Notes under the pieces: model-generated
Database searches by the model: none
The model's input: the letters and a program-made list of their open reading frames with translations, nothing else
What the model was told of the DNA's origin: nothing
Program-made: the position numbers and the translations under genes
From: a virus
Lineage: Duplodnaviria > Heunggongvirae > Uroviricota > Caudoviricetes
Reading direction: 5' to 3' (one strand)
Virus record (IMG/VR): IMGVR_UViG_2541047691_000012
DNA: 24,806 nt
Shown here: piece after piece, positions 2,205-24,806 of the stretch
Numbering within the stretch: the stretch's first letter is position 1
How the letters are laid out: each line of letters begins with the position of its first letter

Positions 2205-3060
2205 AGCGCGCCGCCTGTATGTCGCTGATGGACATATTCTGTGTGGGTTCGATTATCTCCACGCGTTGCACACCGTGCACATGCAGTGCGGCAGCAATGG
2301 CGGACAACGCCACGTCCTGACCGATAAGCCCCTGTTCAGCCAGCCACTTCCTGAATGACGATTCCGCCGCGGCCAGAATAGGTTCGGATTCCGGACCGGG
2401 GTAAAAGTACAGTTTTGCATTCAGCCGCCATGTCACGATGCTGGCGCTCTGTACGGTCAGGCGGTCGGCCACCGGGCGGGTATCCTCTGCATTCAGAACG
2501 GCGCGAACGGTATTAAGCAACGCCTCCGTTGCCGTGCCGTCGCCTTCAGTGGACAGGATGGAAACCGTCACATTTGCCGGAGACGGACTGATAGCCCGCG
2601 CATCACGCACCAGACCGCTGGCGCTGCGGGCAAAATACTCGTATGCACCTGACGGGCCAGCAACACTCAGGCCGTCGTACGCCCGCTGCGCCCGCAGTCT
2701 CAGCGAGGTGTCGCTCTCCATCACCGCGTCGGTGGTATCCGTTGCCGGAGTGATAACCAGGCGCTTTGTGTTCATATTGCCCGCGAGGTTGTCCAGGTTT
2801 GTCCCTGAACCGTGGCTTAACATGCAGGCGCGTGCGCCCTCGTTAACCCGCTGGCGTAACAGCATTTCACGAAACGACATGGTTTGAGCGATAACGTTCA
2901 GGGGTTCTGATTCCAGCTCCAGCGCGGCGGAGACGGCTTCACGCTGTTCGGCAGGATAGGACGCAATCATCATGGCCTTTGTGTCAGCCAGAATTGCCTC
3001 AAAATCAGGCTCCGCGATGATGGCGGGTTCCGGTAACTGGGAAAGGTCAACAGCAGGCAT
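2164..3060 (-). CDS. J: Baseplate protein J (P2 gpJ-like)
   Basis: 298 aa (P2 gpJ is ~300 aa). Located between W and I homologues; its 3' end overlaps I. Confidence 0.8.
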   Translation of the reverse strand: MPAVDLSQLPEPAIIAEPDFEAILADTKAMMIASYPAEQREAVSAALELESEPLNVIAQTMSFREMLLRQRVNEGARACMLSHGSGTNLDNLAGNMNTKRLVITPATDTTDAVMESDTSLRLRAQRAYDGLSVAGPSGAYEYFARSASGLVRDARAISPSPANVTVSILSTEGDGTATEALLNTVRAVLNAEDTRPVADRLTVQSASIVTWRLNAKLYFYPGPESEPILAAAESSFRKWLAEQGLIGQDVALSAIAAALHVHGVQRVEIIEPTQNMSISDIQAARCESFTISEGGRNE

Positions 3061-3063
3061 GAT

Positions 3064-3414
3064 TTACTCTCTCAGCGTGATGGTTAATTCAACATTCTGC
3101 ATGGTCTGCATAACAGTGCCCGACAGCGTCACCCCGGCGCGGCCTCCTGCCTTCCAGACAACGTCGATAGCGTCCAGGGCAATGCGGGGTTCCCATCGTG
3201 TCAGCGCAATCACGGCAGCACTCATGCATTGCAGACGCGTGGTGTTATTCATGGGTTCGTCAATCAAATCAGGCACAAGGCTGCCATATTCCCGTCGCAT
3301 AACCCGGCTTGCCAGCGGGGTGGTCAGGATGTCCCTGACTGACTGTTTCAGGTGCTCCATATCGTTCAGGTTTCCCGTCCCGTCCGGATTCATTCCTGTG
3401 TAGCGGGTTGTCAC
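3064..3414 (-). CDS. W: Baseplate protein W (gpW/gp25-like)
   Basis: 116 aa (P2 gpW is ~115 aa). Directly downstream of the V homologue with a 4 nt overlap. Confidence 0.8.
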   Translation of the reverse strand: MTTRYTGMNPDGTGNLNDMEHLKQSVRDILTTPLASRVMRREYGSLVPDLIDEPMNNTTRLQCMSAAVIALTRWEPRIALDAIDVVWKAGGRAGVTLSGTVMQTMQNVELTITLRE

Positions 3415-20500: not shown

Positions 20501-20911
20501 CTATGCGTTAAATACGGTGCACTGTGCGTCATCAATGAATGCGACTTGAGAGCGCTCTATCAGGCGGAGATTTGTCAGAATTTCTGATTCCCTTATGGGG
20601 TGAGGAGTGATCAGGTATTTATCCTGTAACCCGGCGATAATGGTGTATCGCTGTAGCTCCGAGCCAATTGTGTAAATAAGGCGTCCGGTGTTAGACAAAT
20701 CCAGTCCGGTGACTGGTTGTGTTCTGAGAACCGCCAGTTCAGCATCCTGTTTTGCGATAATTTCGGCTGCTTCTGCCGTGACTCTTGCGACTATCAGTGT
20801 GTGGGTTGCGACGTCCATATGATTATTTGCTATGGCTTTTTTCGCTACTTCGTTTTCTGTCTTTGAAATTTCTTTCAGTGCTCTGATGATACCTTCTTCT
20901 TTTGCGTGCAT
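20501..20911 (-). CDS. Hypothetical protein (136 aa)
   Basis: ORF with SD GGAG about 10 nt upstream. Preceded by an AT-rich intergenic region. Function not recognised. Confidence 0.5.
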   Translation of the reverse strand: MHAKEEGIIRALKEISKTENEVAKKAIANNHMDVATHTLIVARVTAEAAEIIAKQDAELAVLRTQPVTGLDLSNTGRLIYTIGSELQRYTIIAGLQDKYLITPHPIRESEILTNLRLIERSQVAFIDDAQCTVFNA

Positions 20912-21004
20912 TTTTGTATCTCCGTTATTTGCGTGTGCGAATACCTCCGTTAATACGGATGGTTTTCACGTTTTCTTATTTAATTTGATGTTTTATTTGT
21001 ATCG

Positions 21005-21118
21005 TTATTCACCAGTGAAAAAACGTTCAATCTTTTTTACTGAATGAATAATTCGCATAATTCCAATGGCGCAGGCCACCGAAATAATCAGAACAAGCCA
21101 TGAGATAAATATACTCAT
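21005..21118 (-). CDS. Small hydrophobic membrane peptide (37 aa), not in the supplied ORF track
   Basis: Hand-translated from the minus strand: MSIFISWLVLIISVACAIGIMRIIHSVKKIERFFTGE. Single TM helix plus basic tail. The ATG overlaps the stop of the upstream 81 aa gene (ATGA). SD GGGGAA about 9 nt upstream. Locally AT-rich. Confidence 0.4.
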   Translation of the reverse strand: MSIFISWLVLIISVACAIGIMRIIHSVKKIERFFTGE

Positions 21119-21357
21119 GCGATATTCCCCAGCTTATACGGTTCAATATGTTCCCCGCATTCTGCGGCACAGATCAGCTCGGAAAGTTCGTTAAGTGCAT
21201 CCAGATCATCAGCGTAAAAAGCGACGTCATACAAACTCCGGATTGCCCTGGTCAATGAGTCACGGGCTGCACGTTCAGCATGAGCGCCTGATGCACTTAA
21301 GCGAAAATAAAAACGCTCAAGTGCTTTGTTAATGAGAGTTTTATATTCTTTGCCCAT
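21115..21357 (-). CDS. Hypothetical protein (~80 aa)
   Basis: ORF; ATG at 21357 preferred over the adjacent GTG at 21360. SD AAAGGG upstream. Confidence 0.5.
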   Translation of the reverse strand: MGKEYKTLINKALERFYFRLSASGAHAERAARDSLTRAIRSLYDVAFYADDLDALNELSELICAAECGEHIEPYKLGNIA

Positions 21358-21666: not shown

Positions 21667-22017
21667 TTATAAATCAGCCTGTTTAATAAAACTTTGCCCG
21701 CGAAGCAGACGATCAACCGTGCGAAGTGCTTCGTATAATGTGAAATCCTGCCCAAACTGATTGTCGCCACAGCTCAATGCAAAAATGCGGTTTCCGGTAA
21801 ACGGATTGCGTGGGCATTTGTGGACCACAATTCCAGCTTTCTCAATCAGCCAGGTATGCTCGCCGATTTGTTTTACTGGGTAGCCATCCGGCGTTGCGTG
21901 TGTTTCGCTCAGGCTGTAGCGAGAGTTGCTACGTGATGCACTGGTAGCGAAACGGTTAGCGTGGCGTTCCGCACCGTTGCGGAAGCGCGGCTGTGAAGAA
22001 TTGCGCTGTAGTTTCAT
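21667..22017 (-). CDS. Hypothetical protein (116 aa), first gene after the divergent promoter region
   Basis: ATG start. Basic Ser/Arg-rich N-terminus. Function not recognised. Confidence 0.5.
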   Translation of the reverse strand: MKLQRNSSQPRFRNGAERHANRFATSASRSNSRYSLSETHATPDGYPVKQIGEHTWLIEKAGIVVHKCPRNPFTGNRIFALSCGDNQFGQDFTLYEALRTVDRLLRGQSFIKQADL

Positions 22018-22152
22018 ATTAAAACTCTGTACCTTCGGTAAGGTGTACTCGTGTCACCTTGTATTGATTTGTGGTATTTTTTGTGTGTCTAGGACTTGGA
22101 CTGGCCGGTTCAGGTCCTGGCTTATGTTTAATTAAATTGTTTAGAGGTTTTC

Positions 22153-22344
22153 ATGTCAGAAGATAAAAAAGTTGTTAATTTGTTGAGTGACCTTAGTGCT
22201 GCTCTGGATAACATTAACCCTCCTAGGGTAAAAACGACGGGTGATAAAGACGCATTAAACGCAGAGATTCATATATTACTGGCGTTAGTAACTGACAAAA
22301 TTCAGCGTAAATACCCACCTGTCACACAACTGGTTGATTTTTAA
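22153..22344 (+). CDS. Small plus-strand protein (63 aa) in the AT-rich island, convergent with the 140 aa gene
   Basis: ATG with SD GAGG 5 nt upstream. Only plus-strand gene in an otherwise minus-strand early region, which suggests independent expression. Confidence 0.45.
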   Translation: MSEDKKVVNLLSDLSAALDNINPPRVKTTGDKDALNAEIHILLALVTDKIQRKYPPVTQLVDF

Positions 22345-22350
22345 TTTGAT

Positions 22351-22773
22351 TTATGCCGGGCTGCTCCCGGCATCTTCTAGCTGCCATAATGTCTCGTCAC
22401 CTGATAGAGCAAAACGAAATGAGTGAAGTATATCCTCCCGAGAGAAGCTCACGGCTACAGCTGCGGGAAAGTCAAATATAATCCCACCTTCATTTTTAAA
22501 ACGATTACGCAATTGATAGGCTATCGGTTTGATTTGTGCAGGAAGAGTATCTATATCTCTTCCATTGACAACAGAATCTTTGTTTTCCAGTACTGATTTA
22601 GCGATTAGATATAGATGCCAGTAACTGGTTACAATTGTTACTCCTGTGATGTGTCGTAAATTAATTGCAATTCGTCCGTTATTATGTTTTTCCGCAAGGT
22701 ATTTCAGGTTATCAATTAATGCTTGGTCATTTTTTGAAATAGTTATTGTGAAATCTGACGTGTTTGTTTTCAT
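22351..22773 (-). CDS. Hypothetical protein (140 aa) encoded in AT-rich DNA, second gene of the early operon
   Basis: ORF starting 4 nt after the Cox-like stop. Local GC is clearly lower than in flanking phage genes. No recognisable motif. Confidence 0.55.
   Translation of the reverse strand: MKTNTSDFTITISKNDQALIDNLKYLAEKHNNGRIAINLRHITGVTIVTSYWHLYLIAKSVLENKDSVVNGRDIDTLPAQIKPIAYQLRNRFKNEGGIIFDFPAAVAVSFSREDILHSFRFALSGDETLWQLEDAGSSPA
22353..22373. terminator. Stem-loop between the convergent genes (atgccggg-ctgct-cccggcat), overlapping the last codons of the 140 aa gene
   Basis: 8 bp perfect inverted repeat; flanking U-tracts are weak. Confidence 0.35.
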
Positions 22774-22777
22774 ACGA

Positions 22778-23299
22778 TTAGTTGCCTCTGTTGTTTCTGA
22801 GTTGGTTCAGTTTTGAGCTTCTGCCTGTATAAACTCGCTTACCGTTAATGGTCTGGCAGTCTTCTTTATTAGCTGGAGAGAACTTCCTTTTCTGGCGGTC
22901 ATACGTCCAGTAACTTTTCCAGTTGTGCCATTCTGGGGGCTCGTGCTCTGGTAGCTCATCAGCCAACTTGTCCCACTCTTTGGCGTTAAACCACCATACT
23001 CCGTCTGAGTTTTCATCTTCCGGGTTTGTGCGCGTCTTGTGTCCCGGCATTTGACCGCGATGAATGGCTACGCGCAGTGCAGATTTTGTTAGCCCAATAT
23101 ATGCCGCGCCTTTTTCCAGAGAGCAAAGCCCGGCGATCGGACCATCCAGCCGTAAAGTCGCTCCTTTTTTGTAGGAACGCTTTTTCTTGTTTTCTTCGTG
23201 TTCGTCGTCGTTGGCGGCATCAATGGATCCGCTGAGTGTGTCACTTTCCTGAAGTGGTTGGTGGTCAGATAACTCTTTATCGGCAATGAAGTCCCGCAT
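22778..23299 (-). CDS. cox: Cox-like excisionase/repressor with extended N- and C-termini
   Basis: 173 aa. ATG with strong SD AAGAGGA (6 nt spacing). Central region AAYIGLTKSALRVAIHRGQMPG...DGVWWFNAKEWD resembles P2 Cox (FAKLIGKSTGAVRRMIDKGKLP...GEYWVYLPAWN). Divergent from the C repressor gene. Confidence 0.6.
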   Translation of the reverse strand: MRDFIADKELSDHQPLQESDTLSGSIDAANDDEHEENKKKRSYKKGATLRLDGPIAGLCSLEKGAAYIGLTKSALRVAIHRGQMPGHKTRTNPEDENSDGVWWFNAKEWDKLADELPEHEPPEWHNWKSYWTYDRQKRKFSPANKEDCQTINGKRVYTGRSSKLNQLRNNRGN

Positions 23300-23402
23300 T
23301 TGTTATCCTCTTGCGTTGGTGCGCTTGTTGCGCTTTGTGATGGTTTGTTTTGGTTTGTTTTCTTCACCATGTGGTGAAGAATGAAAAGAGGATACTCATC
23401 GT
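23300..23402. promoter_or_regulatory. Immunity switch region: divergent Pe/Pc promoters with candidate operators
   Basis: 103 bp between divergent cox-like and C genes. Tandem direct repeat tggtttgttt x2 (23341-23360), imperfect palindrome ttcaccatgtggtgaa (23363-23378), and gcgcttgt/gcgctttgt repeats. Confidence 0.55.
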
Positions 23403-23744
23403 ATGGTGAACATGTCAAGAGATTACGCCAAAAAACTAAAGGCGATCAGAAATGCAGAAAAACTTACACAATCTCAGTTTTCGCAAGTAACGGGGGTTTC
23501 TGTAGGGACTATAGGGAATTATGAGTCTGGATATAAACCTGCGCGAATTGAGGTTGTAGAAAAAGTAATCCAAGTCGAGCGATTCGAAAAATACACTATG
23601 TGGATACTTCACGACAAAACATTTCCCGCTGCCGGGCAGGTTGCCCCGGCTCTCTCTCTTGATGGCTCTATTCAGTCGGAGGGCGATCAGGTTTCAATCG
23701 GTATTACCCAAAAATCACCCCGATCAGGCCGCAATGTTGGCTGA
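23403..23744 (+). CDS. C: Immunity repressor C (P2 C-like, HTH XRE-type)
   Basis: 113 aa. HTH region (LTQSQFSQVTGVSVGTIGNYESG). C-terminal EKYTMWILHDKTFPAAGQVAPALSL resembles P2 C (TKYTLWFMTNQIAPESGQIAPALAH). Directly upstream of int on the same strand. Confidence 0.75.
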   Translation: MVNMSRDYAKKLKAIRNAEKLTQSQFSQVTGVSVGTIGNYESGYKPARIEVVEKVIQVERFEKYTMWILHDKTFPAAGQVAPALSLDGSIQSEGDQVSIGITQKSPRSGRNVG

Positions 23745-23813
23745 CTCTACACATTGAGCGAATTACATATCGCAAGGAGTGTTTAGTTAATTTATCCGTT
23801 GGAGGGGCTAATC

Positions 23814-24806
23814 ATGTCGATTAAGCAACTCAAAGACGGACGTTATCAGGTCGATGTCAGACCGCAGGGGGCGGAAGGAAAGCGGATTCGAAAAATCTTT
23901 GCCCTGAAATCAAAGGCTCAGGAGTTTGAGAAGTATGTGTTACAGAACTTTCATGACAAGCCATGGCAGGCTAAGCCAGCTGATCAGCGGCGATTATCAG
24001 AGCTGCTTGATGCGTGGTGGATGCTTGATGGGCGTAATCAGGCTTACGGGGATAGCTACAGGGTTAGGCTAGGGAAGGTTGTTCGTGAAATGGGAGATCC
24101 TCGCGCCAGTCAGATGACGCGAAAATTTATGCTTGAATATCGGTCAGAGAAATTACAGGCCGGATTAATGCCGTCCAGTATTAATCGTGACTTATGCGTA
24201 CTGTCTACCATGTTCACGGTGCTGATTGAAGCTGAGGTCTTTCACAACGCGAACCCTGTACGCGGTATACGAAAACTGAAAGTTCAGAACACAGAGATGG
24301 CCTTTCTTTCTGATGATGAGATTGAACGGCTTCTTGAGCGACTGGAGGGTGATGCGCGTCGTGTTGCCATTCTGTGTCTTTCTACTGGTGCCCGATGGAG
24401 TGAAGCATCGGAACTACGTGGAGAGCATATCGTTGGCAACCGGGTGACGTTCTTTAACACCAAAAACGGAAAATCCCGTTCGGTTCCTGTGGCGGATTCG
24501 GTCGTGCCTCTGATTAAAACCCGTCGAACGGGGTTATTGTATCAGGTTGATTATCTGAAGTTCCGGGAGATTCTTCAGGAGGTGAAACCGGATTTGCCGA
24601 AGGGGCAGGCTACGCATGTCATGCGTCATACATTTGCCACACACTTTATGATGAATGGCGGAAATATTGTTACGTTGCAACGAATCCTGGGGCACGCAAC
24701 GATTCAGCAAACAATGACGTACGCTCATTTTTCGCCGGACTTCTTACAGGACGCGATCAACTTTAATCCGCTGGCTGAAAGTGTCCATAAACTGTCCATC
24801 GATTAG
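23814..24806 (+). CDS. int: Tyrosine integrase (P2 Int-like site-specific recombinase)
   Basis: ATG at 23814 with SD GGAGGGG at 6 nt spacing (the track ORF begins at a TTG five codons earlier). Catalytic-domain features: ARWSE, HVMRHTFATHF, LGHATIQQTMTYAH. The stop codon is the last three bases of the window. Confidence 0.9.
   Translation: MSIKQLKDGRYQVDVRPQGAEGKRIRKIFALKSKAQEFEKYVLQNFHDKPWQAKPADQRRLSELLDAWWMLDGRNQAYGDSYRVRLGKVVREMGDPRASQMTRKFMLEYRSEKLQAGLMPSSINRDLCVLSTMFTVLIEAEVFHNANPVRGIRKLKVQNTEMAFLSDDEIERLLERLEGDARRVAILCLSTGARWSEASELRGEHIVGNRVTFFNTKNGKSRSVPVADSVVPLIKTRRTGLLYQVDYLKFREILQEVKPDLPKGQATHVMRHTFATHFMMNGGNIVTLQRILGHATIQQTMTYAHFSPDFLQDAINFNPLAESVHKLSID

What the first reader, a model, noticed from the sequence alone, without database searches (positions are those of the whole stretch)
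22040..22780. AT-rich island just downstream of cox carrying a convergent gene pair (140 aa minus, 63 aa plus)
Base composition drops sharply relative to flanking phage genes, which marks horizontally acquired cargo. The 140 aa gene is coupled to the Cox-like gene, so it would be expressed early in lytic growth, whereas the 63 aa gene is on the opposite strand with its own SD. A stem-loop sits at their junction. This layout fits a toxin/antitoxin-like or defence/counter-defence pair, but neither protein is recognisable.
Basis: partly seen in the sequence, partly recalled or inferred. Interest (0 to 1): 0.6.

Follow-up and report, generated by a model that had tools for sequence, protein, structure and literature searches.

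The report
Antisense-nested gene pair in P2-like prophage
Just after the cox switch gene of this P2-like E. coli prophage lies an AT-rich, horizontally acquired pair of real but uncharacterised genes: a 140-aa early-operon gene and, facing it, a 63-aa gene with its own predicted promoter and terminator. About 5% of complete E. coli genomes carry the pair, and what it does is still unknown.

Summary
Window 22040-22780 has the lowest GC of the whole 24.8-kb window: 38.2% against 53.3% overall, with GC3 0.30 against about 0.50 in the flanking genes. It holds a 140-aa ORF (minus strand, ATG 4 nt after the cox stop), a convergent 63-aa ORF with a Shine-Dalgarno (SD) sequence, and an 8-bp GC stem-loop at their junction.

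Both genes are real. The same convergent pair recurs at 25-45% amino-acid identity in at least 8 lineages of E. coli and Salmonella P2-like prophages, always in the early operon after cox/apl, with dN/dS 0.14-0.6.

The pair is accessory. P88 lacks it, as do about 80% of E. coli P88-like prophages. One otherwise identical prophage has lost it through a precise 687-bp deletion.

In every lineage the small gene looks like a self-contained unit: an extended -10 promoter, a 5' hairpin, the ORF, and a one-way terminator hairpin lying antisense inside the last codons of the large gene. This is a moron-like cassette nested in the early operon.

Neither protein matches any Pfam, NCBIfam, PADLOC, PDB or fold-library entry, and the only PHROG matches are weak hits to families of unknown function.

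A classical toxin-antitoxin reading is not supported. The genes are convergent and carry no TA domains. Published EC958 TraDIS data tolerate insertions in the small gene, and a natural variant lacks it. A role for the small gene in the lysogen and the large gene in lytic growth is plausible but untested.

The parts
22094..22780 (.). The 687-bp accessory segment, comprising the orf63 unit, orf140 and the cox stop codon. It is missing as a clean deletion from an otherwise identical prophage (locus L003, NZ_CM136152).
   Evidence: BLAST of L003 against the window jumps from 22093 to 22781 with 1 bp of overlap. There the Cox ORF is annotated 36 nt (12 codons) longer (558 vs 522 nt). The segment is 38.1% GC.
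22051..22080 (+). Predicted sigma-70 promoter of orf63 (P63): -35 GTGTCA at 22051-22056, an 18-bp spacer, an extended -10 TG at 22072-22073, and -10 TATTTT at 22075-22080.
   Evidence: A TGnTAnnTT element lies 66-72 nt upstream of the small-gene ATG in all 8 lineages, which fall into three unalignable sequence groups. The tool's strict consensus scan did not call it. This is a prediction only.
22087..22121 (+). Stem-loop of 14 bp at the predicted 5' end of the orf63 mRNA. It forms on the plus strand only.
   Evidence: The plus strand folds at -21.5 kcal/mol (z = -3.4); the minus strand gives only -7.8 kcal/mol because G.U pairs become mismatches. A hairpin of different sequence sits at the same place, 0-8 nt after the -10 element, in every lineage.
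22143..22147 (+). Shine-Dalgarno sequence AGAGG of orf63, 5 nt upstream of the ATG.
   Evidence: Read directly from the sequence.
22153..22344 (+). orf63: a 63-aa soluble, acidic protein (pI 5.6) predicted to be a helical hairpin. It belongs to a new family with an N-terminal M-[NS]-[ED]-D-[EK]-K-[IV]-[IV]-x-L-L-x-D motif and a C-terminal K-Y-P motif.
   Evidence: Homologues at 27-43% identity lie convergent to the large gene in L005/6, L009, L010, L011/12, L013, L014/15 and L027. dN/dS is 0.14-0.59. The single-sequence AF2 model has helices H3-21 and H31-53, pLDDT 69. No family hits.
22353..22373 (+). Junction stem-loop, read here as the probable one-way intrinsic terminator of orf63. It lies antisense inside the last codons of orf140 (the ...AGSSPA tail).
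   Evidence: It has an 8-bp GC stem at about -15 kcal/mol. In all 8 lineages a GC-rich hairpin of different sequence lies 7-35 nt after the small-gene stop. In L009-L014 and L013 it is followed by a U-run, and the scan called L011 as a canonical terminator. In the window the U-tract is weak (CUUCU). The minus-strand RNA has no U-tract after the hairpin, so early transcripts should read through.
22351..22773 (-). orf140: a 140-aa soluble protein (pI 6.4). It is the second gene of the early operon, and its ATG lies 4 nt after the cox stop. It belongs to a new family with no annotated domain.
   Evidence: Exhaustive HMMER and profile searches find relatives at 28-38% identity only in Salmonella and E. 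coli P2-like prophages. dN/dS is 0.15-0.57. The AF2 model has pLDDT 61 and an alpha-beta-beta-alpha x2 + beta topology, and gives no significant fold match. The tail, residues 133-140, has pLDDT below 50.
22778..23299 (-). Cox-family switch/excisionase gene (173 aa), the first gene of the early operon. It provides the upstream context for orf140 and its coupling partner.
   Evidence: Pfam Phage_Cox E = 1.9e-7 over residues 58-129; phrog_23196 E = 4e-116.
23389..23418 (-). Predicted early promoter Pe (TTGACA, 18 bp, TATCCT), which would drive cox, orf140 and the downstream early genes through the orf63 region in antisense.
   Evidence: The consensus scan matches 10 of 12 positions. Inverted and direct repeats TCACCATGTGGTGAA / TCATCGTATGGTGAA overlap it and are putative C operators.

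Best explanation
The island is a mobile two-gene accessory module of P2-like (Peduoviridae) prophages, inserted directly after the cox/apl switch gene.

Anatomy. orf140 belongs to the early lytic operon. It is read from Pe and probably translationally coupled to cox, so its product should appear only after infection or induction. orf63 is a self-contained, opposite-strand transcription unit with its own extended -10 promoter, a 5' stabilising hairpin, an SD, the ORF, and a one-way terminator hidden in the last codons of orf140. In the classical sense it is a moron, nested antisense inside the early operon.

Inferred mechanism. In the lysogen Pe is repressed, so orf63 is made alone. When Pe fires, the early transcript must cross the whole orf63 unit in antisense to reach the downstream early and replication genes. 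Convergent transcription and RNA duplex formation would then shut orf63 off just as Orf140 appears. The two products would therefore be expressed in mutually exclusive states.

Most likely role. My best guess is that the pair acts in one phage-host or phage-phage conflict pathway: Orf63 as a lysogen-state effector (exclusion or defence, or a modifier of a host factor), and Orf140 as its lytic-state counterpart or relief.

Status of each step. Shown: the genes are real, accessory, mobile and syntenic. Predicted in silico and conserved: the promoter, hairpin and terminator architecture. Inferred only: the expression states, the antisense shut-off and the conflict role.
For: Real genes:
- Homologous convergent pairs occur in at least 8 lineages at 25-45% identity.
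- dN/dS is 0.14-0.6 for both genes.

Accessory and mobile:
- The pair is absent from P88.
- It is present in 266-272 of the 1396 E. coli genomes with a P88-like early region.
- Other P88-like prophages have nothing, or an unrelated 68-aa gene, after cox.
- L003 carries a precise 687-bp deletion.
- The same module sits next to different Cox/C types and att sites in Salmonella.
- Composition is the lowest-GC stretch of the window, with GC3 0.30.

Autonomous small-gene unit:
- A conserved TGnTAnnTT element lies 66-72 nt upstream of the ATG, followed by a 5' hairpin, in all 8 lineages.
- The window's 5' hairpin is strand-specific.
- A terminator hairpin follows the stop codon in all 8 lineages, with a U-run in most, and is embedded in the C-terminal codons of the large gene.
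- No C-operator-like repeat is found near the predicted orf63 promoter.

The early transcript must read through: the downstream early genes (DUF4761 and others) are co-oriented, no consensus promoter lies in between, and the hairpins lack U-tracts on the minus strand.

Literature: the integrase-primase interval holds 8% of known defence systems in P2-like prophages (PMC13586616).
Against: - No transcript, protein or phenotype data exist for either gene.
- P63 is a prediction, and the strict consensus scan did not report it.
- The window's terminator has only a weak U-tract.
- Neither protein hits PADLOC or any defence, anti-defence or toxin family.
- A functional link between the two proteins is inferred from synteny alone. 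L009 and L014 share an identical small gene while their large genes differ by dN 0.34. L007 and L008 keep the large gene without the small one. The two genes may therefore act independently.
- The family is narrow, limited to E. coli and Salmonella, so no guilt-by-association with defence islands is available.
Confidence: 0.35

Rival explanations
1. Two functionally unrelated accessory genes that merely travel together. orf140 would be an ordinary early protein for host takeover or anti-defence. orf63 would be an independent moron whose terminator happens to overlap the neighbouring gene.
For: - An identical small-gene allele is paired with strongly diverged large-gene alleles (L009 vs L014).
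- The large gene occurs without the small one (L007, L008).
- Neighbouring slots in the Salmonella prophages hold other convergent pairs and gene fusions, which indicates frequent shuffling.
Against: - The pairing, the orientation and the 3' overlap (4 bp in Salmonella, 6-bp spacing in E. coli) are kept in 8 lineages down to about 25-30% identity and across different immunity modules.
- The small gene was never found without the large one in the searches seeded with the small gene.
Confidence: 0.25
2. A lysis-lysogeny control module, analogous in geometry to lambda cro-cII-oop or to 186 apl-cII/pE. Transcription from P63 opposes Pe. That would insulate the replication genes from leaky Pe transcripts in lysogens, or tune orf140 and downstream early expression, while Orf140 and/or Orf63 modulate the C/Cox switch.
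For: - The module always sits directly after the switch gene (cox/apl) and moves with the immunity region.
- A convergent promoter faces Pe, and the two transcripts overlap fully in antisense.
- Within E. coli the island, cox and C show very low polymorphism compared with the neighbouring backbone gene DUF4761: 4-6 polymorphic codons against 25. This fits inheritance as one immunity-linked block.
Against: - Orf140 has no HTH or other DNA-binding signature and is near-neutral to acidic.
- The terminator right after orf63 argues against a pE/pRE-like transcript running on into C and int.
- Most P88-like phages manage without the module.
- The L003 lysogen lacking it is maintained.
- orf63 is under protein-level purifying selection, so it is not just an antisense RNA.
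Confidence: 0.2
3. A toxin-antitoxin / addiction pair that stabilises the prophage. One product would be toxic and the other would neutralise it.
For: - It is a two-gene, AT-rich, mobile cassette of small proteins.
- The pairing is conserved.
- The small gene was never seen without the large one.
Against: - The genes are convergent, not co-transcribed.
- No toxin or antitoxin domain is found in Pfam, NCBIfam or PADLOC.
- No hydrophobic peptide is present, which argues against type I.
- orf63 tolerates 19 transposon insertion sites in 174 bp in EC958 (PMC3789825).
- L007 lacks orf63 but keeps the large gene.
- If orf140 were the antitoxin, it would sit in an operon that is repressed in lysogens.
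- Clean loss of both genes has occurred naturally.
Confidence: 0.07
4. Spurious ORFs or decaying remnants in an AT-rich spacer.
For: - No known domains.
- The AF2 models have only modest confidence.
Against: - Both ORFs are intact in all 13 E. coli and IMG/VR loci checked, and 270 of 272 matching genomes cover at least 80% of the island.
- Both are conserved as proteins at 25-45% identity, with dN/dS well below 1.
- The start-codon and SD context is conserved.
Confidence: 0.03

Closest known systems
Phage morons (Juhala/Hendrix definition; my own knowledge), for example P2 old, tin and fun(Z), or lambda bor and lom
   Same: - The base composition is atypically AT-rich.
- The cassette is present in some and absent from otherwise near-identical phages.
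- orf63 has its own predicted promoter and a factor-independent terminator, the layout that lets a gene be expressed from a repressed prophage.
   Different: - The cassette does not lie between operons or at the known P2 hotspots (the old/tin and Z/fun positions). It is nested antisense inside the early operon, directly after cox.
- Its terminator overlaps the coding end of a conserved partner gene.
- Expression in the lysogen has not been shown.
P2/P4 defence hotspots (Rousset et al. 2022, PMC9122126; NAR 2026, PMC13586616)
   Same: - It is variable, horizontally exchanged cargo in E. coli and Salmonella P2-like prophages.
- The integrase-primase interval is reported to hold 8% of P2 defence systems.
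   Different: - Neither protein matches any PADLOC model.
- The slot immediately after cox is not one of the two main described hotspots.
- No anti-phage phenotype is known.
Lambda cro-cII-oop and phage 186 apl-cII/pE arrangements (established knowledge)
   Same: The geometry matches: a switch gene, then a second early gene, then a convergent transcript that overlaps the 3' end of that second gene.
   Different: - Orf140 shows no HTH and no similarity to CII.
- The convergent unit encodes a protein under purifying selection, not a small RNA.
- It is terminated before it could reach C/int.
P22/lambda sieB-esc and BstA-aba, prophage defence with built-in self-immunity (PMC8585504 for BstA; sieB from my own knowledge)
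   Same: The concept of a lysogen-expressed gene embedded in or near the early/immunity region, with a linked element that spares the phage's own lytic growth.
   Different: - No sequence or fold similarity was found.
- The mechanism here is inferred from orientation alone, and no exclusion phenotype is known.
Type II toxin-antitoxin modules
   Same: Two small, adjacent, mobile genes.
   Different: - The genes are convergent.
- They carry no TA domains.
- The small gene is dispensable in TraDIS, and in a natural variant.

Membership tests
Moron (autonomous prophage-expressed cassette) | Own promoter upstream of the gene | tested here: met
   In silico only. An extended -10 element TGnTAnnTT lies 66-72 nt upstream of the ATG in all 8 lineages. 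In the window it is preceded by a 4/6 -35 at 18-bp spacing. The strict consensus scan did not call it.
Moron (autonomous prophage-expressed cassette) | Factor-independent terminator downstream | tested here: met
   A GC-rich hairpin lies 7-35 nt after the stop codon in all 8 lineages. It is canonical, with a U-run, in L009-L014 and L013. The U-tract is weak in the window, L005 and L027.
Moron (autonomous prophage-expressed cassette) | Atypical composition, and presence/absence among close relatives | tested here: met
   38% GC against 53% overall, and GC3 0.30. Absent from P88 and from most P88-like prophages.
Moron (autonomous prophage-expressed cassette) | Expressed from the repressed prophage | not testable with these tools
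   This needs RNA-seq, 5'-RACE or a reporter in a lysogen.
Type II toxin-antitoxin system | Two genes co-transcribed as an operon | tested here: not met
   The genes are convergent, with 3' ends abutting or overlapping.
Type II toxin-antitoxin system | Recognisable toxin or antitoxin domain | tested here: not met
   No hits in Pfam, NCBIfam, PADLOC or the PDB for either family.
Type II toxin-antitoxin system | The antitoxin cannot be lost while the toxin is retained | tested here: inconclusive
   orf63 is dispensable: EC958 TraDIS and locus L007. orf140 was not annotated in the TraDIS table, so no data exist for it.
Type II toxin-antitoxin system | One product is toxic and is neutralised by the other | not testable with these tools
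   This needs expression and rescue assays.
Type I toxin-antitoxin system | Small hydrophobic toxin peptide plus a non-coding antisense RNA | tested here: not met
   Both proteins are soluble (GRAVY -0.16 and -0.19). The antisense unit encodes a protein under purifying selection. No Rfam hit.
Known anti-phage defence systems (PADLOC-DB 2.0) | Match to a defence-protein model | tested here: not met
   No hit at E <= 1 for the window proteins or for the 15 family members.
Core early genes of P2-like phages | Conserved across P2-like genomes | tested here: not met
   Only 3 of 50,697 phage records carry either gene. Only 266-272 of the 1396 E. coli genomes with this early region carry the island.
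CII-type lysogeny-establishment module (lambda, 186) | HTH transcriptional activator encoded after the cro/apl-like gene | tested here: not met
   No HTH or other DNA-binding family hit. The protein has pI 6.4, and the model is alpha/beta but of low confidence.
CII-type lysogeny-establishment module (lambda, 186) | Activated promoter that reads back through the switch gene into the repressor and integrase genes | tested here: not met
   A terminator hairpin lies directly after the small gene in all lineages. This is in silico evidence only.

The most novel reading that the evidence does not exclude
The pair is a previously unrecognised prophage conflict system. Its lysogen-state effector (Orf63) is wired antisense into the early lytic operon, so the C/Cox switch itself silences it and replaces it with its lytic-state partner (Orf140). 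That would be a built-in self-immunity circuit for exclusion of competing phages or satellites. It is carried by about 5% of complete E. coli genomes, including ST131 strain EC958 and NU14.
Probability: 0.2. Interest if true: 0.7.

Novelty: new variant of a known kind. Interest (0 to 1): 0.5.

Why it matters
If the model holds, it defines two new protein families and a compact circuit design: a moron nested antisense in the early operon, so that the lysis-lysogeny switch automatically toggles two proteins.

The module lies outside the classical P2 defence hotspots. It is carried by widespread clinical lineages: 272 of 5426 complete E. coli genomes, including ST131 strain EC958 and NU14.

It is a small construct of under 800 bp that could readily be tested for new anti-phage, anti-satellite or lysogeny-control activity. 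Natural deletion variants are already available as controls.

If it proves to be an unremarkable accessory pair, the result still documents that the slot after cox is a variable cargo position linked to the immunity module.

Tried and rejected
1. Family assignment. Pfam, PHROGs, NCBIfam and PADLOC gave nothing informative, whether queried with the window proteins or with whole family alignments. The only hits were a sub-threshold DUF1408/phrog_5450 match (E 0.02-0.04) and phrog_6479, a family of unknown function, for 5 Salmonella members.

2. PDB sequence profiles for both families gave nothing.

3. Structure.
- The orf140 AF2 model from a 15-sequence alignment reached only pLDDT 61.
- Foldseek against the PDB and BFVD gave no hit with E <= 0.001.
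- The afdb50 library was unavailable.
- orf63 is a generic helical hairpin, so I ran no fold search for it.

4. A Rop/Rom-like idea for the 63-aa hairpin was rejected: hhalign probability 0.2%.

5. Homology of orf140 to the downstream 259-aa Salmonella protein, and of orf63 to its 103-aa convergent partner, was rejected. Only the fused C-terminus of P0016 matches.

6. Wider relatives. Scans of GTDB representative genomes and metagenome contigs found none. The plasmid collection gave two E. coli records that carry the same element.

7. Rfam gave no hit.

8. Within-E. coli dN/dS has too few substitutions to be informative, so I used Salmonella lineages instead.

9. No LexA-box or C-operator-like repeat was found near the predicted orf63 promoter by inspection and repeat search.

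10. A literature search by protein accession and locus tag returned nothing.
Full report
**Context**

The right end of the window is the immunity and early region of a P2-like prophage of the P88 / Xuanwuvirus type, integrated next to dmsA. The island region (22020-22790) is 100% identical to E. coli NU14 and about 99% identical to ST131 strain EC958. The gene order is:
- int, 23799-24806 (+)
- C repressor, 23403-23744 (+)
- a predicted Pe promoter on the minus strand at 23418-23389
- a long Cox-family gene, 22778-23299 (-) (Pfam Phage_Cox, phrog_23196)
- orf140, 22351-22773 (-)
- orf63, 22153-22344 (+)
- DUF4761, 21667-22017 (-), followed by the rest of the early operon

**Observation check**

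- The 741-bp region is 38.2% GC against 53.3% for the window.
- Only 0.2% of all 741-bp windows are as low, and all of those overlap this region.
- GC3 is 0.30-0.31, against 0.50-0.53 in cox, DUF4761 and int.
- The orf140 ATG lies 4 nt after the cox stop.
- orf63 has an AGAGG SD 5 nt before its ATG.
- An 8-bp GC stem-loop at 22353-22373 lies at the junction.
- One caveat applies: the early region as a whole is already lower in GC than the late genes.

**Are the ORFs genes?**

Yes. Close homologues, at 95% identity or more, occur only in E. coli. An exhaustive HMMER search followed by a profile search found relatives of orf140 at 28-38% identity in Salmonella enterica. Their genomic contexts are strikingly uniform:
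- Each sits in a P2-like prophage with the order int, C/CI, cox/apl (sometimes followed by one or two extra genes, mostly small), then the orf140 homologue.
- In L005/6, L009, L010, L011/12, L013, L014/15 and L027 a convergent gene of 60-62 aa follows. Its 3' end overlaps the large gene by 4 bp in most of them (a 4-nt gap in L013).
- Those small genes are homologues of orf63, at 27-43% identity. They share the motifs M-[NS]-[ED]-D-[EK]-K-[IV]-[IV]-x-L-L-x-D and K-Y-P.

Nei-Gojobori dN/dS is 0.15-0.57 for the large gene and 0.14-0.59 for the small one. Both therefore encode proteins under purifying selection.

**Is it accessory cargo?**

Yes.
- Phage P88 has cox directly adjacent to DUF4761.
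- Of the 1396 complete E. coli genomes that carry this early region, only 266-272 carry the island.
- Other P88-like prophages have nothing, or an unrelated co-directional 68-aa gene, after cox.
- Only 3 of 50,697 phage records carry the pair.
- One genome (L003) has the same prophage at the same site with a precise deletion of 22094-22780. It removes both genes and the cox stop, and Cox is annotated 12 residues longer there.
- In Salmonella the module sits beside different Cox/C types and at different integration sites.
- Within E. coli, the island, cox and C are nearly monomorphic while the adjacent DUF4761 is polymorphic. This is consistent with a recently spread block linked to the immunity module.

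**Anatomy of the small-gene unit**

The same layout is found in all eight lineages, which fall into three groups whose intergenic sequences cannot be aligned with each other.
- An extended -10 element (TGnTAnnTT) lies 66-72 nt upstream of the ATG.
- A strong hairpin of -13 to -27 kcal/mol follows within 0-8 nt.
- An SD and the ORF come next.
- In the window the promoter elements are -35 GTGTCA (22051-56), TG (22072-73) and TATTTT (22075-80).
- The window's 5' hairpin (22087-22121) folds at -21.5 kcal/mol on the plus strand but only -7.8 on the minus strand, because it relies on G.U pairs. It is therefore a plus-strand RNA feature.
- Downstream, every lineage has a GC-rich hairpin 7-35 nt after the small-gene stop.
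- In L009-L014 and L013 that hairpin is followed by a U-run. The scan called L011 as a canonical intrinsic terminator.
- This hairpin always lies antisense within the last codons of the large gene.
- The window's junction stem-loop is the local version, with a weak U-tract (CUUCU).
- On the early-operon strand none of these hairpins is followed by a U-tract, so Pe transcripts should pass through.
- The tail of Orf140 encoded over the hairpin is poorly conserved and has low confidence in the model.

orf63 therefore meets the in-silico criteria of a moron. It has a promoter, an ORF, a terminator, atypical composition and patchy distribution. What is unusual is that it is nested antisense inside the early operon.

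**What the proteins are**

Unknown.
- No informative Pfam, NCBIfam, PHROG, PADLOC or PDB hit was found for either family.
- Orf140 is soluble with pI 6.4. Its AF2 model, built from 15 sequences, has pLDDT 61 and pTM 0.54, with an alpha-beta-beta-alpha x2 + beta topology.
- Orf63 has pI 5.6 and is predicted to be a two-helix hairpin.
- A recalled resemblance to Rop/Rom was tested and rejected.

**Evidence bearing on function**

1. The Phan et al. 2013 TraDIS table for EC958 lists EC958_1050. Its start lies 1662 nt before the integrase start and 2954 nt before dmsA, exactly the offsets of orf63 in the finished genome (L004). It has 19 insertion sites in 174 bp (insertion index 0.11) and is flagged non-essential. 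It also shows no serum phenotype. Orf63 is therefore not an essential antitoxin in the lysogen.
2. L007 keeps a large gene 99% identical to that of L014 but has lost the small gene. L008 and P0016 are fusions of the large-gene domain to other sequences.
3. L009 and L014 have identical small genes, but their large genes differ by dN 0.34. This argues against tight allele-specific co-evolution.
4. The small gene was never found without the large one.
5. [quoted passage not shown]

**Mechanism proposed** (inference, confidence about 0.35)

- In the lysogen, C represses Pe and orf63 is transcribed alone from its own promoter.
- On infection or induction, Pe transcripts make Cox and, by coupling, Orf140.
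- Those transcripts must traverse the whole orf63 unit in antisense to reach DUF4761 and the replication genes.
- Convergent transcription and RNA duplex formation would shut orf63 down.
- The two proteins would thus mark opposite states of the switch.
- The most likely use of such a circuit is a conflict function: exclusion or defence in the lysogen, relieved during the phage's own lytic growth.

**Rivals**

- Independent genes that merely co-travel: 0.25.
- A lysis-lysogeny tuning or insulation module with lambda cII-oop-like geometry: 0.20.
- A toxin-antitoxin pair: 0.07.
- Spurious ORFs: 0.03.

**Comparison with known systems**

The module works most like a moron combined with an early gene. 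It is not a member of any TA type, of any PADLOC defence family, of the P2 core early gene set, or of CII-type modules; the defining features were tested and not met (see the membership table).

**Verdict**

- The horizontally acquired cargo reading is supported.
- The TA reading is not supported.
- Defence/counter-defence remains an open and testable hypothesis.
- The module is a new variant of a known kind: two unannotated protein families in a conserved architecture nested antisense in the early operon.
- Interest is moderate, at 0.5.

Noticed in passing
window 23359-23570, compared with L004 (EC958) and L003: Immunity swap. The Pe/Pc operator region and the N-terminal HTH half of C differ between the window (NU14 type) and the EC958 type. 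Operator repeats are TTCACCAtgTGGTGAA in the window and GATAACCAAAAGGTTATC in EC958, and the C proteins are 73% identical with the differences in residues 1-75. The flanking cox, orf140, orf63 and the C-terminal half of C are 98-99% identical. The two are probably heteroimmune variants sharing the same Cox and cargo.
   Followed up: partly
L003 (NZ_CM136152) 2535-3092, equivalent to the window junction 22093|22781: The natural 687-bp deletion removes the cox stop codon, and Cox is annotated 12 residues longer there (185 aa). The junction has only 1 bp of microhomology and no flanking repeats.
   Followed up: yes
window 22778-23299: This Cox is unusually long at 173 aa (P2 Cox is about 91 aa; my own knowledge), with an acidic N-terminal extension of about 55 aa. 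Pfam Phage_Cox covers only residues 58-129. A 63%-identical, 192-aa relative heads the same module in IMG/VR locus L027.
   Followed up: no
L005 5766-6804; L013 4001-4937; L011 5389-6006: The Salmonella prophages carry further convergent, 3'-overlapping pairs of unknown function just downstream: 259 aa with 103 aa, 225 aa with 103 aa, and 102 aa with 108 aa. They also show gene fusions, in which P0016 and P0019 join the orf140-type domain to the C-terminus of the next gene. Convergent pairs appear to be a recurring design in this region.
   Followed up: partly
L006 4672-4848; L008 4750-4851; L015 887-988: Small hydrophobic ORFs of 58 and 33 aa, each with a single predicted transmembrane stretch, lie in the gap between cox and the orf140 homologue in several Salmonella lineages. 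The E. coli window has no equivalent.
   Followed up: no
window 20850-21150: A second short AT-rich patch (35% GC in a 300-bp window) in the early operon. It contains a 37-aa hydrophobic ORF (21005-21118, minus strand) that RefSeq annotates as a hypothetical protein.
   Followed up: no
window 22117-22138 and 22330-22351: A 22-nt AT-rich direct repeat (77% identity) flanks orf63. One copy follows the 5' hairpin and the other precedes the terminator hairpin. This may be chance, or a trace of how the cassette was inserted.
   Followed up: no
L014 6412-6669; L008 and L011, genes between int and the prophage end: Other cargo in the related Salmonella prophages. There is a ParE_like (PF24732) gene inside the early operon of L014. 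[quoted passage not shown] The att-integrase interval is reported as a minor defence location in PMC13586616.
   Followed up: no
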